DNA of 64,000 nt, taken from assembly GCA_036399915.1 (NCBI GenBank), contig DASWME010000222.1, forward strand, positions 7,164-71,163. The letters are read 5' to 3'. The notes under the pieces are model-generated. The model was not told the origin of the DNA. It was given only the letters and a program-made list of their open reading frames with translations, and did no database searches. Origin of the DNA: Thermoanaerobaculia bacterium. GTDB taxonomy: Bacteria; Acidobacteriota; Thermoanaerobaculia; Multivoradales; UBA5704. Within the stretch, counting starts at the first letter, position 1, and each line of letters begins with the position of its first letter. Below, piece by piece: positions 23,176 to 64,000 of this stretch. The translations under genes and the position numbers were made by a program.

Positions 23176-24390
23176 CTAGCGATTCCCCGATGCCATCCGC
23201 GCCGCTTCGGGCAGCCGGCGGAGGCGGAGCATGCTCCAGGCGCCGAAGACCGGACCGATGGCGAGGATCAGGAAGGCGCGCTCCCAGCCGAAACGGTCGG
23301 CGAGCGGCGGGATGATGCGGATGGTGAAGAGGGTCAGCAGGAAGCCGAGGCTGGTCTGCAGCGTCAGCGCCGTGCCTACGTAGCGCGGATCGGCCAGCTC
23401 GCTGACCGCGGCACTGAACTGCGCGCTGTCCGCCACCACGGCGAAGCCCCAGACGAGACAGAGGACGGTGAGCGGTCCCGGGCTGTGGAAGAGGAGGCCC
23501 GCCGTCAACGCGCAGGCGCCGGAGACGATCAGGCTCCAGGCGGTCACCCGCGTGCGTCCCAGCCGGTCGGCGAGGCGTCCGGCCAGCACGCAGCCCACCG
23601 TCCCGGCGGCGAGGACGCCGAAGCCGGCGAGGCGGGCGTCGTGCGCGTTCCAGCCCGCGGCCTCATAGCTCGCCAGCAGGAAGATCGGCACCCAGGCCCA
23701 CATGGCGTACAGCTCCCACATGTGACCGAGATAGCCGAAGTTGGCGAGCCGTGTGGGCCGGTCCGCCAGCACGCGTCCCGCGAAGCGCCAGTCGAACGGC
23801 GGCGCCTTGCCGAGGTACGGACCGGGACGGATCACGATCGCTCCCAGGACCGCGGCGATGGCGGCCAGGGCGGAGGTGGCGAGCAGCACCGCGCGCCAGG
23901 GAGGCATGCCGCCTTCGCCGAAGACCGGCAGCGCGTTGAGCAGGTGGGGCACTCCCGAGCCGAGCGTCAAGGCGCCGACCAGGATGCCGATGCCGAGCCC
24001 GCGGTCCTCCTTGCACCAGGAGGCCACGAGCTTCATGCCGGGCGGGTACACGCCGGCGAGGGCGAATCCGGTCAGAAAGCGCAGCGCCAGCGTAGGGCCC
24101 GGCCCGGCGTCGAGGAGAGGGATGGCGGCGTTGGCGCCGGCTGCCACGAAGGCGCTCACCGCGAAGAGCCGGTGCGCGGCCAGGCGGTCCGCCAAGTTGA
24201 GCACGGCCGAGAGCAGCGCCCCCGCCACGAAGCCGATCTGCACGCTCATGGTGAGCCACGACCGCTGGCCGCCCGAGAGGTCCCACTCGGCGGTGAGCTG
24301 GGGCACCACGGCCGAGGCGGAGAACCAGACCGTCATGGCGAGCAGCTCGGCGACGGCCAGCAGGCCGACCTGGGGCCACTTGCGGGTCAT
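23176..24390 (-). CDS. MFS transporter
   Basis: It has 12 predicted TM segments and an LADRLGRTR-type loop 2-3/8-9 motif. Confidence 0.85.
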   Translation of the reverse strand: MTRKWPQVGLLAVAELLAMTVWFSASAVVPQLTAEWDLSGGQRSWLTMSVQIGFVAGALLSAVLNLADRLAAHRLFAVSAFVAAGANAAIPLLDAGPGPTLALRFLTGFALAGVYPPGMKLVASWCKEDRGLGIGILVGALTLGSGVPHLLNALPVFGEGGMPPWRAVLLATSALAAIAAVLGAIVIRPGPYLGKAPPFDWRFAGRVLADRPTRLANFGYLGHMWELYAMWAWVPIFLLASYEAAGWNAHDARLAGFGVLAAGTVGCVLAGRLADRLGRTRVTAWSLIVSGACALTAGLLFHSPGPLTVLCLVWGFAVVADSAQFSAAVSELADPRYVGTALTLQTSLGFLLTLFTIRIIPPLADRFGWERAFLILAIGPVFGAWSMLRLRRLPEAARMASGNR

Positions 24391-24456
24391 GGATCAACTG
24401 ACCCTGAAAGTCCCGTTTGGCTTCTCCTCCGCACCCTCTTCTGATGAGGAGGAACC

Positions 24457-24690
24457 ATGGACCGACGTAAGATCGTTCGCTGTTTCGCCCTCATCTGTAT
24501 GGTCGCCGGCACCCTGCAGACGGCGCAGCCCGCCCTGGCCACGCTCGACCCCTGCGTCTCCGCCTGTTTTCCGGACTACAGCCTTTGCTACGACGGTTGC
24601 CAAGGCTCTCAGCCCTGCCAGCAGGAATGCTGGGCCTACTACCAGGCCTGTCTCTGCGAGTGCAATCCGCCAAGGTACTGTCCGGCCTGA
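24457..24690 (+). CDS. secreted cysteine-rich small protein (77 aa precursor, ~49 aa mature, 10 Cys)
   Basis: AGGAGG lies 6 nt upstream of the ATG. The signal peptide MDRRKIVRCFALICMVAGTLQTAQPALA is followed by TLDPCVSACFPDYSLCYDGCQGSQPCQQECWAYYQACLCECNPPRYCPA, which has three CX3C pairs and a CxCxC. Confidence 0.7.
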   Translation: MDRRKIVRCFALICMVAGTLQTAQPALATLDPCVSACFPDYSLCYDGCQGSQPCQQECWAYYQACLCECNPPRYCPA

Positions 24691-24739
24691 TCGCGCGCCT
24701 GGACGGCGGGATCGTGAGGTCAGCGCCATCCGCGGGAGC

Positions 24740-25303
24740 TTACTTCAGCGCATCCAGCGCCGCCCGGATCTCCGCGTTCGACGGCCGCTGCCGGTAGTCC
24801 TCCTCGACCTTCGCCCAAGCGACCTTGCCGTTCTTGTCGATCACGTAGACCGCCGGGTGCGGGACGCCTTCGATCGGCTGCCCCTTGTAGGCGGGGTCGC
24901 GCAGGCCGTAGGCGTCGATGGTCTTGCTGCCAGGGTCGGAGAGCAGCCGGTAGCCGACCTTGCCTCTGCCGTCGGCGGCAATCTTCTCCTCGAGCTTGCG
25001 GCTGTTCTCGGGCTTGTCGATGCTGATGGCGTAGACGTCCAAGGGCTCGCCCTCCTTGCGGAGGAGCCGCAGCTCGGCCAACTGCCGAGCGCAGAACGGT
25101 CACCAGTAGCCGCGGTAGAAGACGAGCACGACCGGCCGCTGCCCGCGCGAGGCCGACAGCTTCACGGTCTGGCCGTTCTGGTCCTGCAGCGCGAAGTCCG
25201 GGGCCATGTCGCCCACCGCCACCGGCGAGGTGCGGGCCTGCTCCGCCGCGGACGCGAGGCCGGCGATCAGGACGGCGAGAGCTGCGATGCTGAATCTTCT
25301 CAT
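24740..25303 (-). CDS. exported redoxin/peroxiredoxin-like (AhpC/TSA-TlpA fold) selenoprotein candidate, UxxC active site (TGA at 25100-25102 read as Sec)
   Basis: ORFs 25100..25303 and 24740..25081 are in the same frame and are separated only by TGA. The joined sequence reads ...RPVVLVFYRGYW-U-PFCARQLAELRLL..., so the TGA replaces the first Cys of the conserved WCPxC motif. There is an N-terminal signal peptide, AGGAGG lies 7 nt before the ATG, and a SECIS-like hairpin sits downstream. Confidence 0.75.
25067..25094 (-). promoter_or_regulatory. candidate bacterial SECIS stem-loop
   Basis: The mRNA reads UGA CCGUU CUGC-GCUCGGC-AGUUG-GCCGAGC-U-GCGG. This gives 7 perfect bp plus 4 more bp across a bulged U, and a 5-nt apical loop with GU. 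The stem starts 5 nt after the UGA, and the loop G is ~20 nt from the U of UGA. Confidence 0.6.
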
Positions 25304-25329
25304 TGAAAGATCCTCCTGGAAGCTGCGGC

Positions 25330-25610
25330 CCGGGTCACGCCGCCTGACCTGCGGGTCAAGCCGTCTGACCTTCAGGTCAAGCCGCCCGACCTTCAGGTCA
25401 AGCCGTGTGACCTTCAGGTCAAGCCACCAGACCGTCAGGTCAAGTGACCTGACCTCCAGGTCAAGCTATCTGACCTTCAGGTCAAGCCCTTGACCTGGAG
25501 GTCGAGCCGCCTGACCTTCAGGTCACGCCGTCTGACCTTCAGGTCAAACTGTCTGACCTTCAGGTCAAGCCCTCGACCTGCGGGTCGAGCCGTTTGACCT
25601 TCGGGTCAGG
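25330..25610. repeat. tandem array of ~14 x 21-bp units, each containing the palindrome TGACCTnnAGGTCA
   Basis: The consensus unit is tgaccttcaggtcaagccgyc. Six exact TGACCTTCAGGTCA cores start at 25366, 25408, 25471, 25512, 25533 and 25554. The remaining units differ by 1-3 nt. The array fills the spacer between the oxidoreductase stop (25637) and the Sec-redoxin RBS (25310). Confidence 0.95.
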
Positions 25611-25636
25611 GGGCGTTCGATCCATGGGGCCCCGAG

Positions 25637-27187
25637 TCACTTGAAGGTCCGGAACCACACGTCAAAGATCTTTTTCACCGTCGGCGTCAGCTTGCCGCGC
25701 CGCCAGGTGTCGGCCGCCTTCTTCACCACCTCGCCCTGGGTGGGGTAGGGGTGGATGACGCTGGCGATCCTGGCGAGGCCGATGCCATGGGTGACGGCGA
25801 GACAGAGCTCGCCGAGCATGTCGCCCGCGTGCTCGGCCACCAGGGTGGCCCCTACGATCTTACCCTCCTTCGATCCCTTCGCGACGTGGACGCGCAGGAA
25901 GCCGTCGTCGGCGCCGTCGAGGATGGCGCGGTCGACGCCGGAGAGGGGGACCGTCAAGGTCTCGACCGCGATCCCCTTCTCGCGGGCGTCCCTCTCGTAG
26001 AGGCCGACGTGGGCGATCTCGGGCGTGGTGTAGGTGCACCAGGGCACGGTGAGGGCCGAGGCCTTGGCGCGGCCGAAGAACAGGGCGTTCTGGATGACGA
26101 TGCGCGCCTGGGCGTCGGCCACGTGGGTGAACTGGAAGCGGGACGCCACGTCGCCGCAGGCGAAGACGTTCCGGTTGCTGGTGCGCAGGTTGTCGTCCAC
26201 CTCGACGCCGCGCCTGCCGTAGGCGACGCCGGCGGCTTCGAGGCCCAGGCCCTCGACGTTGGGCGCGCGCCCGGCCGCCACCAGGATCTCGTCCGCCACC
26301 GCCTCGTGCCGCTGCCCGCCGCGCTCGAAGACGACGACCTTCTCGGCGCCCCGGCGGCGGACCTCGACGGCCTTCATGCCGAACTCGAAGTGGACGCCGT
26401 CGTCGATCATGGCCTTCTGCACGATCTCGGCGGCGTCGGCGTCCTCGCGGGGGAGGATGTGGGCTTCCTGGTTCAAGTGGGTGACGCGGCTGCCGAGGTG
26501 GGCGAAGGCCTGGGACATCTCGCAGCCGATGGGGCCGCCGCCGATCACCACCAGGCGCTTGGGCAGCTCGGTCAGGTTGAAGATCGTCTCGTTGGTGCGG
26601 AAGCCCGCCTCGGCCAGGCCCGGGATGGGCGGCTCGGCGGCGCGGGCGCCGGTGGCGATGACGGCGCGGCGGAAGCGCAGGCGCTTGCCCTCGACCTCGA
26701 CCGCGTCGGGCGCGACGAAGCGCCCCTCGCCCAGGAAGACGTCCACTCCGAGGCTGGTGAAGCGGCGGGCGCCGTCGTGCACGCTGATGCCGGCGCGCAG
26801 GCGGCGCATGCGCGCCATGGCGGCGCCGAAGTTGCCGGTAGCGTCGTGGGCGACCGGCGGGCCGCCGAAGCGGGCGGCGGCCTCGCGGGCATCGTGCCAG
26901 GCGCGGGCGGCGCGGATCACCCCCTTGGAGGGGACGCAGCCGACGTTCAGGCAGTCGCCGCCCATCAGGTGCCGCTCGAGGAGGGCCACCCGGGCGCCGA
27001 GCCCGGCGGCGCCCGCGGCCGAGACCAGGCCGGCGGTGCCCGCGCCGATCACCACCATGTGATACCGCTCCTTCGGCTCCGGGTTCACCCAGGACGATGG
27101 ATGGACGTTCTCGACGAGCTTGAGGTTGTACTCGTCCAGCGGCTCGACGGGGAACGTCGGCGGCTGCTTCAGGGCGGGCTCAGACAT
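25637..27187 (-). CDS. FAD-dependent pyridine nucleotide-disulfide oxidoreductase (mercuric reductase / dihydrolipoamide dehydrogenase-like)
   Basis: It has VVIGAGTAGLVSA and the redox-active GGDCLNVGCVPSK, plus a C-terminal dimerisation domain with HPYPTQGE. It overlaps the upstream TVP38 gene by 8 nt. Confidence 0.9.
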   Translation of the reverse strand: MSEPALKQPPTFPVEPLDEYNLKLVENVHPSSWVNPEPKERYHMVVIGAGTAGLVSAAGAAGLGARVALLERHLMGGDCLNVGCVPSKGVIRAARAWHDAREAAARFGGPPVAHDATGNFGAAMARMRRLRAGISVHDGARRFTSLGVDVFLGEGRFVAPDAVEVEGKRLRFRRAVIATGARAAEPPIPGLAEAGFRTNETIFNLTELPKRLVVIGGGPIGCEMSQAFAHLGSRVTHLNQEAHILPREDADAAEIVQKAMIDDGVHFEFGMKAVEVRRRGAEKVVVFERGGQRHEAVADEILVAAGRAPNVEGLGLEAAGVAYGRRGVEVDDNLRTSNRNVFACGDVASRFQFTHVADAQARIVIQNALFFGRAKASALTVPWCTYTTPEIAHVGLYERDAREKGIAVETLTVPLSGVDRAILDGADDGFLRVHVAKGSKEGKIVGATLVAEHAGDMLGELCLAVTHGIGLARIASVIHPYPTQGEVVKKAADTWRRGKLTPTVKKIFDVWFRTFK

Positions 27188-27959
27188 GGCGGTCCTCCGC
27201 GGCGGCCGGGGCGTCGATCTCCTGGCGCAGCGCCCTGCCGGCCAGGCGGGTGACGAACGCCGTGACCACGACCGTGGCGACGAGGCCCAGGCCGAGGACG
27301 ATCCAGGACCCAGGGCCCTTCTCCGTCCTGGCTCCTCCCGCCAGCGCCGCCAGGCTGCCGGCGGCCTTGCCGTAGTAGACGTAGAGCAGGGTGCCGGGCA
27401 GCATCGCGATCGAGGCGAGGAAGTACTGCCAGAAGCCGACCCGGGTCAGCCCCAGGGAGTAGTTGAGCAGGTTGAAGGGGAAGACTGGAGAGAGGCGCAG
27501 CAGGGCCACGATCTTGAACCCCTCGCGCCCGACCGCCCGGTCGATGGCCTCGAACTTCGGGTTGCCGGCGATCTTGCGCTCGATGGCGCCGCGCGCCACG
27601 TAGCGGGCCACCAGGAAGGCTGCGGCGGCGCCCAGCGTAGCGCCGATCATGGTGTAGAGCGTCCCCTTGACCAGCCCGAAGATGGCGCCCGCCGCGAGTG
27701 TGAGGAGCGAGCCCGGGATGAAGGCGACCGTGGCGACGGCGTAGCCCAGGATGAAGACGACCGGCCCCCACACCCCCAGGCCCTCGACCCACTGGGCGAA
27801 CCGGGGGATGTAGGCGCCCGCCTGCCGGCCGCCGAGGATCAGGGCGGCCAGGACGGCGAGGCCGATCACGGCGTAGAGGACGAGCCTGGCCTTCGACCCC
27901 GGCTTCTGCTGCGGGACGGCGTCGGCGGTGCTGTTCACAGCAGCGGCTCCTCTCTGCAT
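27180..27959 (-). CDS. TVP38/TMEM64 (DedA-superfamily) membrane protein
   Basis: FIPGSLLTLAAGAIFG...LLRLSPVFPFNLLNYSLGLT is present. The ATG at 27959 lies inside the longer ORF 27180..28493. Confidence 0.8.
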   Translation of the reverse strand: MQRGAAAVNSTADAVPQQKPGSKARLVLYAVIGLAVLAALILGGRQAGAYIPRFAQWVEGLGVWGPVVFILGYAVATVAFIPGSLLTLAAGAIFGLVKGTLYTMIGATLGAAAAFLVARYVARGAIERKIAGNPKFEAIDRAVGREGFKIVALLRLSPVFPFNLLNYSLGLTRVGFWQYFLASIAMLPGTLLYVYYGKAAGSLAALAGGARTEKGPGSWIVLGLGLVATVVVTAFVTRLAGRALRQEIDAPAAAEDRHV

Positions 27960-50536: not shown

Positions 50537-50612
50537 GGTGGCGGTGACGGGACTCGAACCCATGACCTAGCGGTTATGAGCCGCTCGCTCTAACCGGCTG
50601 AGCTACACCGCC
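50537..50612 (-). tRNA. tRNA with CAT anticodon (elongator Met or tRNA-Ile2/lysidine substrate), CCA encoded
   Basis: Reverse complement: GGCGGTG-TA-GCTC-AGCCGGTTA-GAGC-G-AGCGG-CTCATAA-CCGCT-AGGTC-ATGGG-TTCGAGT-CCCGT-CACCGCC-A-CCA. It forms a full cloverleaf, and G1-C72 rules out an initiator. Confidence 0.9.
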
Positions 50613-52363: not shown

Positions 52364-52440
52364 TGGCGGGGCCGACGGGGCTCGAACCCGCGACCTCCGG
52401 CGTGACAGGCCGGCGTTCTAACCGACTGAACTACAGCCCC
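52364..52440 (-). tRNA. tRNA-Asp (GTC), CCA encoded
   Basis: Reverse complement: GGGGCTG-TA-GTTC-AGTCGGTTA-GAAC-G-CCGGC-CTGTCAC-GCCGG-AGGTC-GCGGG-TTCGAGC-CCCGT-CGGCCCC-G-CCA. Confidence 0.93.
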
Positions 52441-52472: not shown

Positions 52473-52548
52473 TGGTGGGAGGTGAGGGATTTGAACCCGC
52501 GACCCCCTGCGTGTAAGGCAGGTGCTCTGACCGCTGAGCTAACCTCCC
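52473..52548 (-). tRNA. tRNA-Val (TAC), CCA encoded
   Basis: Reverse complement: GGGAGGT-TA-GCTC-AGCGGTCA-GAGC-A-CCTGC-CTTACAC-GCAGG-GGGTC-GCGGG-TTCAAAT-CCCTC-ACCTCCC-A-CCA. There is one C-U mismatch in the T stem. Confidence 0.85.
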
Positions 52549-62711: not shown

Positions 62712-63163
62712 AGTCCCCCCATCTCCTCCGCGTCGAAGGCGACCCGGTCCATTTCGCCCCGCTCATCGAGGCCGCCCGTGCCGTGGGGCTGCGGATCGGC
62801 TGGCTCGATCTCGGCGGCACGCCCTCGCCGGTCCCCGAGGCTCTGGACGCCGCCGCCGGCCTCGGGGTCCTCCGTGCCGTCGTGGTGGGGAAGGACCGGA
62901 CGGTCGCCGTCAAGCCCCTGCGCGGTGCGCCCGTCCTCAAGGACCTCCTGCGCGAGCACTTTCAGGGCTGCGCGCTCGTCCTCGTCCGGGGAGAGGTGGA
63001 CGCGCCGGCCCTGCGAATCGAGGAGGACGCCTGGGTTGTCACGCCGCCGGGGACCGCTTCATGGCAGTACACCGCGGCAAAGCTCGCCGCCACGCTCCGA
63101 AAGCCCAATCCCTGGCATCCCGGGACTTCCGCGTCCTCCCCGGACGAGAAAAATCCAACCTGA
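62708..63163 (+). CDS. hypothetical protein (151 aa)
   Basis: The GTG start is preceded by GAGGAGG and overlaps the previous stop (GTGA). Codon usage is GC3-rich. I recognise no family. Confidence 0.45.
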   Translation: MKSPHLLRVEGDPVHFAPLIEAARAVGLRIGWLDLGGTPSPVPEALDAAAGLGVLRAVVVGKDRTVAVKPLRGAPVLKDLLREHFQGCALVLVRGEVDAPALRIEEDAWVVTPPGTASWQYTAAKLAATLRKPNPWHPGTSASSPDEKNPT

Positions 63164-63445
63164 AAGGCTTTTCGGTCCGGAATAGGCCCCGTCCTCGCGG
63201 CAAAGCCTTTCCGCTTCGACCCAAAGGCCTTTTGGTTCCAGAATAGCCTTCGTCTCCCGGCAGAAAAGGTCTGTTGGGCGGGGAAAAGCCTTTTCGCTCG
63301 AGGTAAAGGTCTTTTTCCGACGGTAAAGGGCTGTTGCTCGCTGGAAAAGGGCTTTTGCCCCGAGGAGGGAGTCAATCCTCGGACCGAAAGGCCTTTTGGC
63401 GGCGCCATTGCCTTTTACCTCCGACGGAAAGGTCTTTGGAGGCGG
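63159..63445. repeat. tandem array of ~14 units, ~20.5-bp period, palindromic core AAAGG(N0-1)CCTTT
   Basis: The core centres lie near 63167, 63186, 63206, 63228, 63246, 63269, 63289, 63310, 63330, 63351, 63372, 63392, 63412 and 63433. The best copies are ccaaaggccttttgg (63221) and ccgaaaggccttttgg (63384). The array fills the spacer upstream of the aminotransferase gene. Confidence 0.8.
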
Positions 63446-63542: not shown

Positions 63543-64000
63543 GTGATCGAGCCCATCCAGTTCTTCCTCCCCGGCCCGAGCTACGTGCCCGAGGATGTCC
63601 GCCAGGCCATGACGAAGCCCGTGGTGGGGCACCGGTCGGCCGGGTTCAAGGAGTTCTATCTCACGCTCGCCGGACGGCTGCCGAAGGTGCTCCGCACCGC
63701 GGGCGACGTCATGATCGCCACCGGCAGCTCGACCCTGATCATGGAGAGCGCCGTCGTCTCCTGCGTCCGGCAGGACGTGCTCAACCTCACCAACGGCGCC
63801 TTCTCCGAGCGCTGGCATGCGATCTCGAAGGCCGCTGGGAAATCCGCCGACAAGGTCTCGGCGCCCTGGGGGCAGGCCGTCGATCCGGACCTCGTGCGCT
63901 CGGCCCTGCGCCGCAGGCGCTACGACGCGGTCACCGTGGTCCACAACGAGACCTCGACGGGCGTGATGAGCCCCATCGCGGAGATCGCGCGCGTCATCCG
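63543..64000 (+). CDS. class V (serine-glyoxylate / phosphoserine-type) aminotransferase, 3' end cut by window edge
   Basis: This gene is not in the ORF track because no stop falls inside the window. Hand translation from the GTG at 63543 gives VIEPIQFFLPGPSYVPEDVRQAMTKPVVGHRSAGFKEFY...ATGSSTLIMESAV...NGAFSERW...VVHNETSTGV. GAGGAG lies 11 nt upstream. Confidence 0.75.
   Translation, partial: MIEPIQFFLPGPSYVPEDVRQAMTKPVVGHRSAGFKEFYLTLAGRLPKVLRTAGDVMIATGSSTLIMESAVVSCVRQDVLNLTNGAFSERWHAISKAAGKSADKVSAPWGQAVDPDLVRSALRRRRYDAVTVVHNETSTGVMSPIAEIARVI

What the first reader, a model, noticed from the sequence alone, without database searches (positions are those of the whole stretch)
25330..25610. Array of ~14 tandem 21-bp units, each a TGACCT-NN-AGGTCA palindrome, filling the spacer upstream of the Sec-redoxin gene
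The unit is tgaccttcaggtcaagccgyc. Six cores are exact TGACCTTCAGGTCA and the others differ by 1-3 nt. The period is 21 bp, with one 20-bp unit. That equals two helical turns, so every palindrome faces the same side of the duplex. This is the arrangement expected for cooperative binding of a dimeric protein along ~290 bp, as with operator arrays, centromere-like parC/parS sites or iterons. The array starts ~20 nt from the RBS of the selenoprotein candidate and ends ~25 nt from the stop of the upstream oxidoreductase. It is therefore also an intercistronic or 5'UTR RNA that could form 14 consecutive short hairpins (GACC-UGAA-GGUC on the mRNA strand). It has no spacers and so is not a CRISPR array. 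The 7-codon periodicity creates a fake heptad-repeat ORF (25206..25493).
Basis: seen in the sequence. Interest (0 to 1): 0.75.

Follow-up and report, generated by a model that had tools for sequence, protein, structure and literature searches.

The report
Phased 21-bp palindrome minisatellite between genes
The 14-unit array of 21-bp palindromic repeats is real, but it is one copy of a fast-changing, genome-scattered repeat family of soil Acidobacteriota that landed between two genes, not a control switch built for the selenoprotein gene next to it.

Summary
Window 25324-25608 holds 13 well-formed units and 1 degenerate unit, with a period of 21 bp (two units are 20 bp) and the core TGACCTTCAGGTCA. 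This is far beyond chance.

The array fills the spacer between a pyridine-nucleotide-disulfide oxidoreductase gene and a UxxC (Sec) AhpC/TSA-redoxin gene, both on the minus strand.

It is not conserved with these genes:
- A relative at 86% identity has the same gene pair with a 42-nt spacer and no array.
- A relative at 93% identity has a different 21-bp palindromic array at the same spot.
- Five other relatives have none.

The unit (YGACC-N4-GGTCR plus a G/A-rich 7-nt linker) recurs as 9-28-unit arrays. There are at least 9 such loci in one Acidobacteriota MAG and 2 on contigs of another metagenome, next to unrelated genes. No single copies occur.

An unbiased scan of about 180 kb of clade DNA found five non-coding phased arrays. 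All have a 20-21 bp period and each has a different core.

Best reading: a new REP/BIME/MAEB-like intergenic minisatellite. It grows by slippage or unequal recombination and is strongly structured as RNA. A generic protein-binding role for the two-turn phasing is not excluded. A locus-specific operator is not supported.

The parts
25324..25608 (-). Tandem array of 14 units. Read on the minus strand (mRNA sense for both flanking genes) the unit is TGACCTGAAGGTCA + GRCGGCT. Thirteen cores are intact and the promoter-distal last unit (25324-25344) is degenerate.
   Evidence: TRF, motif count against shuffles, register listings
25471..25594 (-). Two identical 20-bp units (25471-25490, 25554-25573), each followed by a GGTCGAGCCG-type unit. 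This is the footprint of an 83-bp (4-unit) block duplication inside the array.
   Evidence: TRF period 83, score 356; unit listing
25609..25636 (-). 28-nt unique spacer between the oxidoreductase stop codon and the first core. Its first ~16 nt still align with the relative L122.
   Evidence: Sequence; blastn homology with L122 ends at 25632
25637..27187 (-). Upstream gene: pyridine nucleotide-disulfide oxidoreductase (mercuric-reductase or dihydrolipoamide-dehydrogenase-like), 516 aa. It is overlapped at its 5' end by a VTT/DedA-domain gene.
   Evidence: Pfam PF07992/PF02852/PF00070; gene calls on identical contig L001
25312..25317 (-). Shine-Dalgarno AGGAGG of the downstream gene, 8 nt before ATG 25303 and 6 nt after the degenerate last unit.
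   Evidence: Sequence read directly
24740..25303 (-). Downstream gene: secreted AhpC/TSA-Redoxin family protein with in-frame TGA at 25100-25102 (W-U-P-F-C). A stem-loop starts 12 nt after the TGA. The same split is present in relative L124.
   Evidence: Pfam on both halves; fold of the region after the TGA; gene calls in L124

Best explanation
The array is one copy of a dispersed, rapidly turning-over family of intergenic minisatellites found in Acidobacteriota (Thermoanaerobaculia-like genomes). The family consists of head-to-tail arrays of a 21-nt unit. Each unit is a 14-nt palindrome (YGACC-N4-GGTCR) plus a 7-nt G/A-rich linker.

Shown:
- The array sits in what is a 42-nt intercistronic spacer in a relative.
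- It is absent from, or replaced at, the orthologous site in other relatives.
- The same unit forms 9-28-unit arrays at many unrelated loci, and single copies do not occur.
- Arrays have degenerate edge units and multi-unit block duplications. These are the signature of growth and homogenisation by replication slippage or unequal recombination.

Inferred:
- The array is co-transcribed with the oxidoreductase and the Sec-redoxin gene. There it folds into very stable structure.
- Like REP/BIME elements, this structure would mainly act as a physical barrier to 3'->5' exonucleases and RNase E scanning. It would also uncouple the two cistrons.
- It carries no gene-specific regulatory information.

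How new arrays are seeded at new sites is unknown.
For: Orthologous sites:
- L124 (86% aa) has oxidoreductase, 42 nt, then Sec-redoxin, with no array.
- L122/L123 (93% aa, 89% nt) carry a different 21-bp array (CCCGCC-GGTSCA-GGCGGG-TGA, ~12 units) starting ~50 nt after the same stop codon. YaeQ follows instead of the redoxin.
- L125, L127, L128, L130, L133 and L134 have no array there. L129 has a 9-bp-repeat hairpin.

Family:
- Acidobacteriota MAG MFD04580.bin.1.152 has at least 9 arrays on 4 contigs. All have period 21, with 9-28 copies and consensus TGACCTGTGGGTCAGAGAGCG.
- Two long contigs of metagenome Ga0190274 carry 9- and 10-unit arrays of TGACCTGMAGGTCAGGTSRGT.
- The window consensus matches these in 16 of 21 positions.
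- Neighbouring genes are unrelated in function: cNMP-binding/DUF1003, PhoU, carbamoyltransferase, GDSL lipase, TMEM175, HTH_3, AbiEii, GH3_C.
- There are no exact single palindromes outside the array in 64 kb.

Array dynamics:
- Edge units are degenerate and 42/63/84-bp higher-order repeats occur.
- Two arrays share a 71-nt flank.

RNA structure:
- The 361-nt sense transcript has MFE -206.6 kcal/mol, z = -10.2.
- A single unit hairpin folds at -6.5 kcal/mol.
Against: - There is no compensatory covariation in the stems. Positions 1/14 and 6/9 vary symmetrically but independently (Watson-Crick pairs 69 observed against 74.7 expected, and 80 against 72). All degenerate units are single-arm changes. 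Pairing itself is therefore not visibly under selection.
- The family orientation relative to the flanking genes is not constant. It is sense in the window, L063 and L068, and antisense in L057, L120 and L121.
- An RNA or neutral model does not explain the period. All five non-coding phased arrays found without any motif bias in ~180 kb of clade DNA have a 20-21 bp period, including one with no palindrome.
- Transcription across the array, and any effect on mRNA, have not been tested.
- Other copies in the window's own genome could not be examined, because only 64 kb is available.
Confidence: 0.48

Rival explanations
1. The array is a phased DNA-level binding platform. A dimeric sequence-specific protein recognises the symmetric half-sites TGACCY and loads cooperatively on one face of the helix every two turns. 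Sister arrays with other cores serve other proteins. The role would be architectural, titrating or mobility-related rather than control of the adjacent gene.
For: - The half-site marginals are symmetric (T1 about equal to A14, C1 about equal to G14, Y6/R9). There is no covariation, as expected for two independently read half-sites.
- The central 4 bp and the linker vary between arrays.
- Sequence-unrelated arrays in the same clade share the 20-21 bp period: window 63163-63440, L122, L120 390-607, L132 15520-15700 and the non-palindromic GTCCC array in L133.
- Weinberg et al. 2007 raise the same possibility for tandem-hairpin motifs (PMC1950547).
Against: - No single sites occur in promoters within 64 kb.
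- In some arrays every second unit has lost one arm (L005, L063).
- Arrays come and go between close relatives.
- Each core type would need its own protein, and no candidate gene recurs next to arrays.
- Conservation of the arms across genomes is partly built into the search pattern.
Confidence: 0.3
2. The array is a locus-specific operator, centromere or iteron array that controls or serves the Sec-redoxin operon.
For: The array has a palindromic core and two-turn phasing, and it lies directly upstream of the RBS.
Against: - The orthologous Sec-redoxin gene in L124 lacks the array.
- The same unit lies next to unrelated genes elsewhere.
- The immediate context is chromosomal housekeeping: GlnA, DedA/VTT, MFS and a TonB receptor, with no rep or par genes nearby.
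- There are no plasmid or phage matches.
- No sigma-70-like promoter or intrinsic terminator was found in 24500-27500.
Confidence: 0.04
3. The array is purely neutral slippage DNA with no consequence at DNA or RNA level.
For: - The array turns over rapidly, has degenerate edges and shows block duplications.
- There is no covariation.
Against: - The same 21-mer is present at at least 9 loci in one genome and in at least 3 genomes. This requires dispersal or recurrent selection, not local slippage alone.
- The preference for a 20-21 bp period across unrelated cores is unexplained.
- A 290-nt insert folding at about -200 kcal/mol in an operon spacer is unlikely to be silent for the mRNA.
Confidence: 0.15

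Closest known systems
REP / BIME elements (repetitive extragenic palindromes; GTAG and CGTC superfamilies, Di Nocera et al. 2013, PMC3733652)
   Same: These are short GC-rich palindromes confined to extragenic DNA, often just after stop codons and between co-directional genes. They are dispersed over the chromosome, variable between close relatives, and form hairpins in read-through mRNA.
   Different: - This array has no conserved unpaired GTAG or CGTC tag.
- Its units are strictly head-to-tail (such dimers are rare or negligible in REPs) and never single.
- It has a fixed 21-bp period and a 5-6 bp stem.
- No RAYT gene was found in the window or in the loci held (each at most 8 kb around an array). 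The RAYTs found in relatives are flanked by a different ~50-nt GTAG REP.
MAEB motif of Burkholderia (Weinberg et al. 2007, PMC1950547)
   Same: MAEB is a single short hairpin with conserved linker, repeated 2-12 times in tandem. It is found at many intergenic loci in a genome, has an ambiguous RNA-versus-DNA reading and has no known function.
   Different: - The sequence and phylum differ.
- There is no Rfam match even at E<=10.
- MAEB sits in 5' regulatory position of metabolic genes, whereas these arrays show no functional theme.
- MAEB shows some covariation, and here none was seen.
MIRU-type intercistronic minisatellites of mycobacteria (own knowledge: Supply et al. 1997)
   Same: These are tandem units inside operon spacers, dispersed over the genome, with copy number and presence variable between strains.
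   Different: - MIRU units are 46-101 bp, are not palindromic, and carry small ORFs coupled to the flanking genes.
- Here two of the three sense frames contain TGA in every unit, and the open frame is not joined to the upstream gene.
Plasmid centromere and iteron arrays (parC of R1, sopC of F, R6K/pPS10 iterons; own knowledge)
   Same: These are many identical protein-binding sites in tandem, with spacing close to one or two helical turns, so that all sites face one side.
   Different: - Those arrays lie next to par or rep genes on plasmids and are conserved with them.
- This array is chromosomal, dispersed, not conserved and has no plasmid or phage match.
CRISPR arrays
   Same: Both have short, partly palindromic repeats in a regular array.
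   Different: There are no spacers. The whole 21-bp unit repeats.

Membership tests
REP (GTAG/CGTC superfamilies) | Conserved unpaired GTAG or CGTC tetranucleotide at one end of the palindrome | tested here: not met
   On the plus strand only some window units end in CGTC or CGCC. The family linkers (GAGAGCG, GGTSGGT, AAGACCK, AGGGTTT) carry no such tag. The definition is from PMC3733652.
REP (GTAG/CGTC superfamilies) | Many dispersed single units and head-to-head or tail-to-tail dimers | tested here: not met
   There is no exact TGACC-N4-GGTCA outside the array in 64 kb. All arrays are head-to-tail. A relaxed search outside arrays returned only CGACC...GGTCG coding-like matches.
REP (GTAG/CGTC superfamilies) | Association with a RAYT (REP-associated tyrosine transposase) flanked by the same repeat | tested here: not met
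   tblastn with the RAYT of L124 found nothing in the window or in any array-bearing locus. The RAYTs of L124 and L130 are flanked by an unrelated ~50-nt GTAG REP. Only 8 kb around each array could be examined.
BIME | Mosaic of REPs in alternating orientation with other short motifs | tested here: not met
   All units in every array have the same orientation and the same linker.
MAEB and other Rfam RNA families | Score against the family covariance model | tested here: not met
   cmscan at gathering threshold found only tRNAs in the window. At E<=10 on 25200-25700 it returned only spurious miRNA-hairpin matches far below threshold.
Structured cis-regulatory RNA hairpin | Base pairs maintained by compensatory changes | tested here: not met
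   Among 147 units, pairs 1/14 and 6/9 show no excess of Watson-Crick combinations over independence. Degenerate units change one arm only. The inner four pairs could not be tested because they were used as the anchor.
CRISPR | Repeats separated by unique spacers | tested here: not met
   The unit listing shows no spacers. cas genes were not searched for.
Plasmid iteron / par centromere array | Adjacent rep or par gene, plasmid or phage replicon, conservation with that gene | tested here: not met
   The neighbours are GlnA, DedA/VTT, oxidoreductase, redoxin, MFS, thioesterase and a TonB receptor. There are no blastn hits in 72,556 plasmids or 50,697 phages. The array is absent in orthologous loci.
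Locus-specific operator of the Sec-redoxin gene | Conserved upstream of orthologous target genes | tested here: not met
   L124 has the orthologous split (Sec) redoxin 42 nt after the oxidoreductase stop, without any repeat.
MIRU-type intercistronic minisatellite | Tandem units in operon spacers, dispersed and variable between strains | tested here: met
   The position is intercistronic. The family is dispersed. Presence, absence or replacement varies among relatives.
MIRU-type intercistronic minisatellite | Unit-encoded small ORF translationally coupled to the flanking genes | tested here: not met
   The sense strand has TGA in two frames of every unit. The third frame (DLKVRRL) has no start and is not in phase with the upstream stop.
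Dimeric-protein binding site array (generic) | Specific binding of a protein to the duplex palindrome | not testable with these tools
   Only indirect evidence is available: symmetric half-sites without covariation and two-turn phasing.

The most novel reading that the evidence does not exclude
Thermoanaerobaculia-like Acidobacteriota carry a previously undescribed class of chromosomal arrays phased at 20-21 bp (two helical turns), roughly one per 35-40 kb. The period is the conserved feature and the core motif is interchangeable. The cores seen are TGACC-N4-GGTCA, AAAGGNCTTT, GGCAGA-NN-TCTGCC, CCCGCC-N6-GGCGGG, TTARCSGYTAA and even a non-palindromic GTCCC. In this reading each array is a one-faced loading platform for a cognate DNA-binding protein, or a curvature or architectural element. 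That would make it a dispersed chromosomal analogue of plasmid centromere or iteron arrays, or a natural transcription-factor decoy array.
Probability: 0.22. Interest if true: 0.8.

Novelty: new variant of a known kind. Interest (0 to 1): 0.5.

Why it matters
- **Annotation.** Such arrays create false heptad-repeat ORFs. They also break short-read assemblies: two independent contigs end inside this one. They are therefore under-counted in MAGs, and the richest genome found here is assembled in megabase-scale contigs.
- **Interpretation of the selenoprotein locus.** The spacer should not be read as a Sec-specific control element.
- **Biology.** A repeat family whose arms are shared by several genomes has no described counterpart in the literature searched. 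It is accompanied by sister arrays that keep a two-helical-turn period while changing sequence. It gives a concrete test case for whether bacterial intergenic repeats act as RNA structure, as DNA-protein scaffolds, or as selfish DNA.

Tried and rejected
- A metagenome scan with a linker-specific two-unit pattern found 0 hits. A second scan with the loop-specific pattern found only 2. It did not recover the JGI contig L002, which carries that pattern, so that collection is incomplete for this organism.
Many hits are collagen-like coding repeats of period 18/24/27 or unrelated short hairpin arrays of period 17-26. Counts are therefore lower bounds, and conservation of the arms is partly by construction.
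- Family orientation against local GC skew shows no relation.
- A conserved leader, terminus or target-site duplication was sought. Only L029 and L078 share a 71-nt flank. Comparing the filled site (window) with the empty site (L124) shows no duplication.
- Promoter and terminator were sought. No sigma-70-like or intrinsic-terminator-like site occurs in 24500-27500. The recurrent TTGACC has no -10 partner, and an ECF-type reading does not fit the spacing.
- Translation was considered. The heptad frames are by-products of the 21-nt period.
- A CsrA-type sponge was considered. Only 2 sense-strand loops contain GGA.
- RAYT association was not found.
- A look-up of the 67-aa N-terminal redoxin fragment, intended to find other strains spanning the array, returned only the same contig.
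- The single viral hit (L126) is an ordinary two-site operator in a divergent promoter and is not this family.
- The two differences between the window and L003 lie in the last unit, at a contig end. They may be assembly artefacts, so they were not used as evidence of polymorphism.

Full report
**1. The observation**

Tandem Repeats Finder reports a 21-bp array at 25333-25608 with 13.2 copies, 78% matches and score 300. It also reports an 83-bp higher-order period with a higher score of 356.

The palindrome TGACCTNNAGGTCA with up to 2 mismatches occurs 12 times inside the array and 4 times in the rest of the 64-kb window. The expected count for the whole window is 1.36, and no shuffle out of 100 reached 16.

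In register there are 14 units:
- Thirteen have a recognisable core, and six of those are exactly TGACCTTCAGGTCA.
- The unit nearest the downstream gene (25324-25344) is degenerate.
- Two units, not one, are 20 bp (25471-25490 and 25554-25573). They are identical, and each is followed by a GGTCGAGCCG-type unit. A 4-unit (83-bp) block was therefore duplicated.

An ENA contig is identical to the window over 17.9 kb. Independent JGI and Logan contigs are 99.9% identical, carry the first ~181 nt of the array, and then both end at the same point inside it. The array is real and breaks short-read assemblies. Its exact length rests on one assembly.

**2. Setting**

Both neighbours are on the minus strand.
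- Upstream is a 516-aa pyridine-nucleotide-disulfide oxidoreductase (25637-27187), overlapped by a VTT/DedA gene.
- Downstream is a secreted AhpC/TSA-Redoxin protein (24740-25303). It has an in-frame TGA at 25100-25102 (W-U-P-F-C) and a stem-loop 12 nt after it.
- The first core lies 28 nt after the stop codon. AGGAGG (25312-25317) follows the last, degenerate unit by 6 nt.
- No sigma-70-like promoter or intrinsic terminator was found in 24500-27500.

Homologues of the oxidoreductase at 78-85% identity are labelled Thermoanaerobaculia or Acidobacteriota by NCBI. That is the likely origin of the window.

**3. The array is not conserved with these genes**

I retrieved the orthologous locus from ten relatives.
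- L124 (86% aa) has the same oxidoreductase and the same split Sec-redoxin, separated by 42 nt with no repeat.
- L122/L123 (93% aa, 89% nt) lose homology with the window 5 nt after the stop codon. About 50 nt after the stop they carry a different array of ~12 units, also 21 bp, built on CCCGCC-GGTSCA-GGCGGG-TGA. YaeQ follows instead of the redoxin.
- L129 has a hairpin made of 9-bp repeats at that position.
- L125, L127, L128, L130, L133 and L134 have nothing. L132 has a 35-nt gap and no repeat.

The window's array is therefore a lineage-specific insertion or expansion in a short intercistronic spacer, at a site that different repeats have colonised repeatedly.

**4. It belongs to a dispersed family**

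I scanned 185,579 species-representative genomes for three consecutive GACCTNNNGGTC cores with 5-14 nt between them. Many hits are collagen-like coding repeats or unrelated short hairpin arrays of period 17-26.

One Acidobacteriota MAG (MFD04580.bin.1.152, megabase contigs) stands out:
- It has at least 9 arrays on 4 contigs.
- All have period 21, with 9-28 copies. The longest is 593 bp.
- The consensus is TGACCTGTGGGTCAGAGAGCG.

A metagenome scan for the window's own core found two more arrays of 9 and 10 units, TGACCTGMAGGTCAGGTSRGT. They lie on two long contigs of one sample.

Oriented by the linker, all arrays read YGACC-YNNR-GGTCR-RRGARCG. The window's minus strand matches these consensuses in 16 of 21 positions.

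Features not forced by the search pattern are shared:
- the exact 21-bp period
- T/A at the outer pair
- Y at position 6 and R at position 9
- a G/A-rich linker
- high copy number

Single copies do not occur. A relaxed search returned only coding-like CGACC...GGTCG matches.

Pfam confirms genes on both sides of several arrays, and they are functionally unrelated: cNMP-binding/DUF1003 and PhoU; carbamoyltransferase and GDSL lipase; TMEM175 and an HTH_3 protein; an AbiEii toxin; a GH3 C-terminal domain. Most arrays lie between co-directional genes, tens to hundreds of nt after a stop codon. The linker orientation relative to transcription varies: sense in the window, L063 and L068, and antisense in L057, L120 and L121.

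**5. How the arrays evolve**

- Edge units are degenerate and central units are homogeneous.
- Higher-order periods of 42, 63 and 83/84 bp are common.
- In L005 and L063 every second unit has lost its right arm.
- L029 and L078 share a 71-nt flank at 83% identity.

This is the behaviour of a minisatellite maintained by slippage, unequal exchange and gene conversion. The way new loci are seeded is not evident. I found no target-site duplication and no RAYT in the window or the array loci. Two relatives do carry a RAYT flanked by a classical ~50-nt GTAG REP unrelated to this unit.

**6. RNA or DNA?**

As RNA, the 361-nt sense strand folds at -206.6 kcal/mol (z = -10.2). It does so mainly through long inter-unit duplexes. 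One unit alone gives a 5-6 bp hairpin of -6.5 kcal/mol. If transcribed, such a block would be expected to hinder exonucleases and RNase E scanning, as REP/BIME elements do. This step is inferred.

The stems show no sign of selection for pairing. In 147 units the outer pair (1/14) and the 6/9 pair vary with symmetric marginals but independently. Watson-Crick pairs number 69 observed against 74.7 expected, and 80 against 72. Every degenerate unit is a single-arm change. Symmetric, independently varying half-sites (TGACCY) are what a dimeric duplex-binding protein would give. Neutral decay of a palindrome gives the same pattern.

Rfam has nothing here, either at gathering thresholds or at E<=10. 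There is no similarity to plasmids or phages.

**7. An unexplained regularity**

I ran lag-autocorrelation over ~182 kb of clade DNA that was not selected by any motif: the window plus ten orthologous loci. It found five non-coding phased segments with a 20-21 bp period. The only other non-coding periods were a 9-bp and a 10-bp repeat. The five are:
- this array
- a degenerate array of AAAGGNCTTT palindromes at window 63163-63440 (17 of the window's 21 matches cluster there; 2.55 expected)
- the L122 array
- a TTARCSGYTAA array in L132 15520-15700
- a GTCCC direct-repeat array in L133 12900-13180 with no palindrome

In addition, L120 has a second 21-bp array (GGCAGA-NN-TCTGCC). Together with the TGACC array it brackets an AbiE-like toxin-antitoxin cassette.

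A period of two helical turns that outlives the sequence is not predicted by an RNA-hairpin or a neutral model. It keeps a DNA-level reading alive.

**8. Comparison with known systems**

- **REP/BIME.** The location, palindromy, dispersal and strain variability match. The defining tag, the single or head-to-head organisation, and RAYT linkage do not (PMC3733652).
- **MAEB.** This Burkholderia motif is the closest described analogue in architecture. It is a tandem hairpin with conserved linker, 2-12 copies, at many loci, with the same RNA-versus-DNA ambiguity (PMC1950547). It differs in sequence, phylum and gene association.
- **MIRU.** These share the intercistronic minisatellite habit but not the unit size, the palindromy or the coupled small ORFs.
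- **Plasmid centromere/iteron arrays.** These share only the phasing.
- **CRISPR.** Excluded, because there are no spacers.

Literature searches found no description of this family.

**9. Verdict**

The finding is real and well described, but its main interpretation is not supported. The array is a member of a new family of phased palindromic intergenic minisatellites in Acidobacteriota. It is a new variant of the REP/BIME/MAEB kind, inserted between two genes, and it most probably acts, if at all, through nucleic-acid structure. The shared two-turn period across sequence-unrelated sister arrays is the one strange feature and is worth a genome-wide census. Interest 0.5.

Noticed in passing
window 63163-63440: A second, degenerate phased array lies in the intergenic region upstream of an ORF that appears to start near 63545 (+); its product was not checked. 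It has about 13 units of 20-21 bp, each with an AAAGGNCTTT(T) palindrome. Seventeen of the window's 21 matches (<=1 mismatch) cluster here, against 2.55 expected.
   Followed up: partly
window 24740-25303 (-), TGA at 25100-25102: An AhpC/TSA-Redoxin family gene has a signal peptide and an in-frame TGA in a W-U-P-F-C motif. A 7-bp stem-loop (loop AGUUG) starts 12 nt after the TGA. The same split is present in relative L124, so this is a likely selenoprotein.
   Followed up: partly
window 24390-25632 compared with L122, L124, L127, L133, L134: The slot between the oxidoreductase and the MFS or thioesterase genes is variable. It holds the Sec-redoxin in the window and L124, and YaeQ in L122, L127, L129, L133 and L134. 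The window also has an extra 77-aa Cys-rich secreted ORF on the opposite strand (24457-24690) with no Pfam match.
   Followed up: partly
L124 7407-8253; L130 4890-5500: Relatives carry a RAYT-like gene (NF047646, 69 bits, below the 80-bit cut-off). It is flanked by inverted ~50-nt GTAG-tagged REPs (TAGGGTAGGGGCGGGTC...GACCCGCCC), forming a classical REPtron. It is absent from the window.
   Followed up: yes
L120 390-607 and 1650-1858: Two different 21-bp palindromic arrays (GGCAGA-NN-TCTGCC and TGACC-type) bracket a two-gene cassette whose second gene is an AbiEii/DUF6036 nucleotidyltransferase toxin. This may link the arrays to junctions of mobile cassettes.
   Followed up: partly
L133 12900-13180: About 14 direct copies of (T)GTCCC(TGA) are spaced 20-21 bp apart with otherwise diverged spacers. 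They lie between convergent genes, just before a hairpin terminator. This phased array has no palindrome.
   Followed up: no
L132 15520-15700: An intergenic ~20.5-bp phased array is built on TTARCSGYTAA palindromes. A CCGGTAAATG x3 repeat follows.
   Followed up: no
L129 4560-4650: At the position of the window's array, this relative has a long hairpin. It is built from 9-bp repeats (CAAGGACAA x2.8) facing their complement (TCGTCCTTG x4.9).
   Followed up: no
loci L004-L119: Short non-coding tandem arrays of GC-rich hairpins (CGACC-N4-GGTCG and similar; periods 17, 19, 22, 23, 25, 26; 3-8 copies) occur in many phyla, including Mesorhizobium, Nocardioides, Cryobacterium, Haliangium and Planctomycetota. 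A Planctomycetota MAG (L073 3416-3590) has 8 units of TGACCTTGAGGTCAAGGGTTT directly upstream of a gene start.
   Followed up: partly
window 50539-50612, 52367-52440, 52476-52548 (-): There are three tRNA genes. These were the only Rfam matches at gathering threshold.
   Followed up: no
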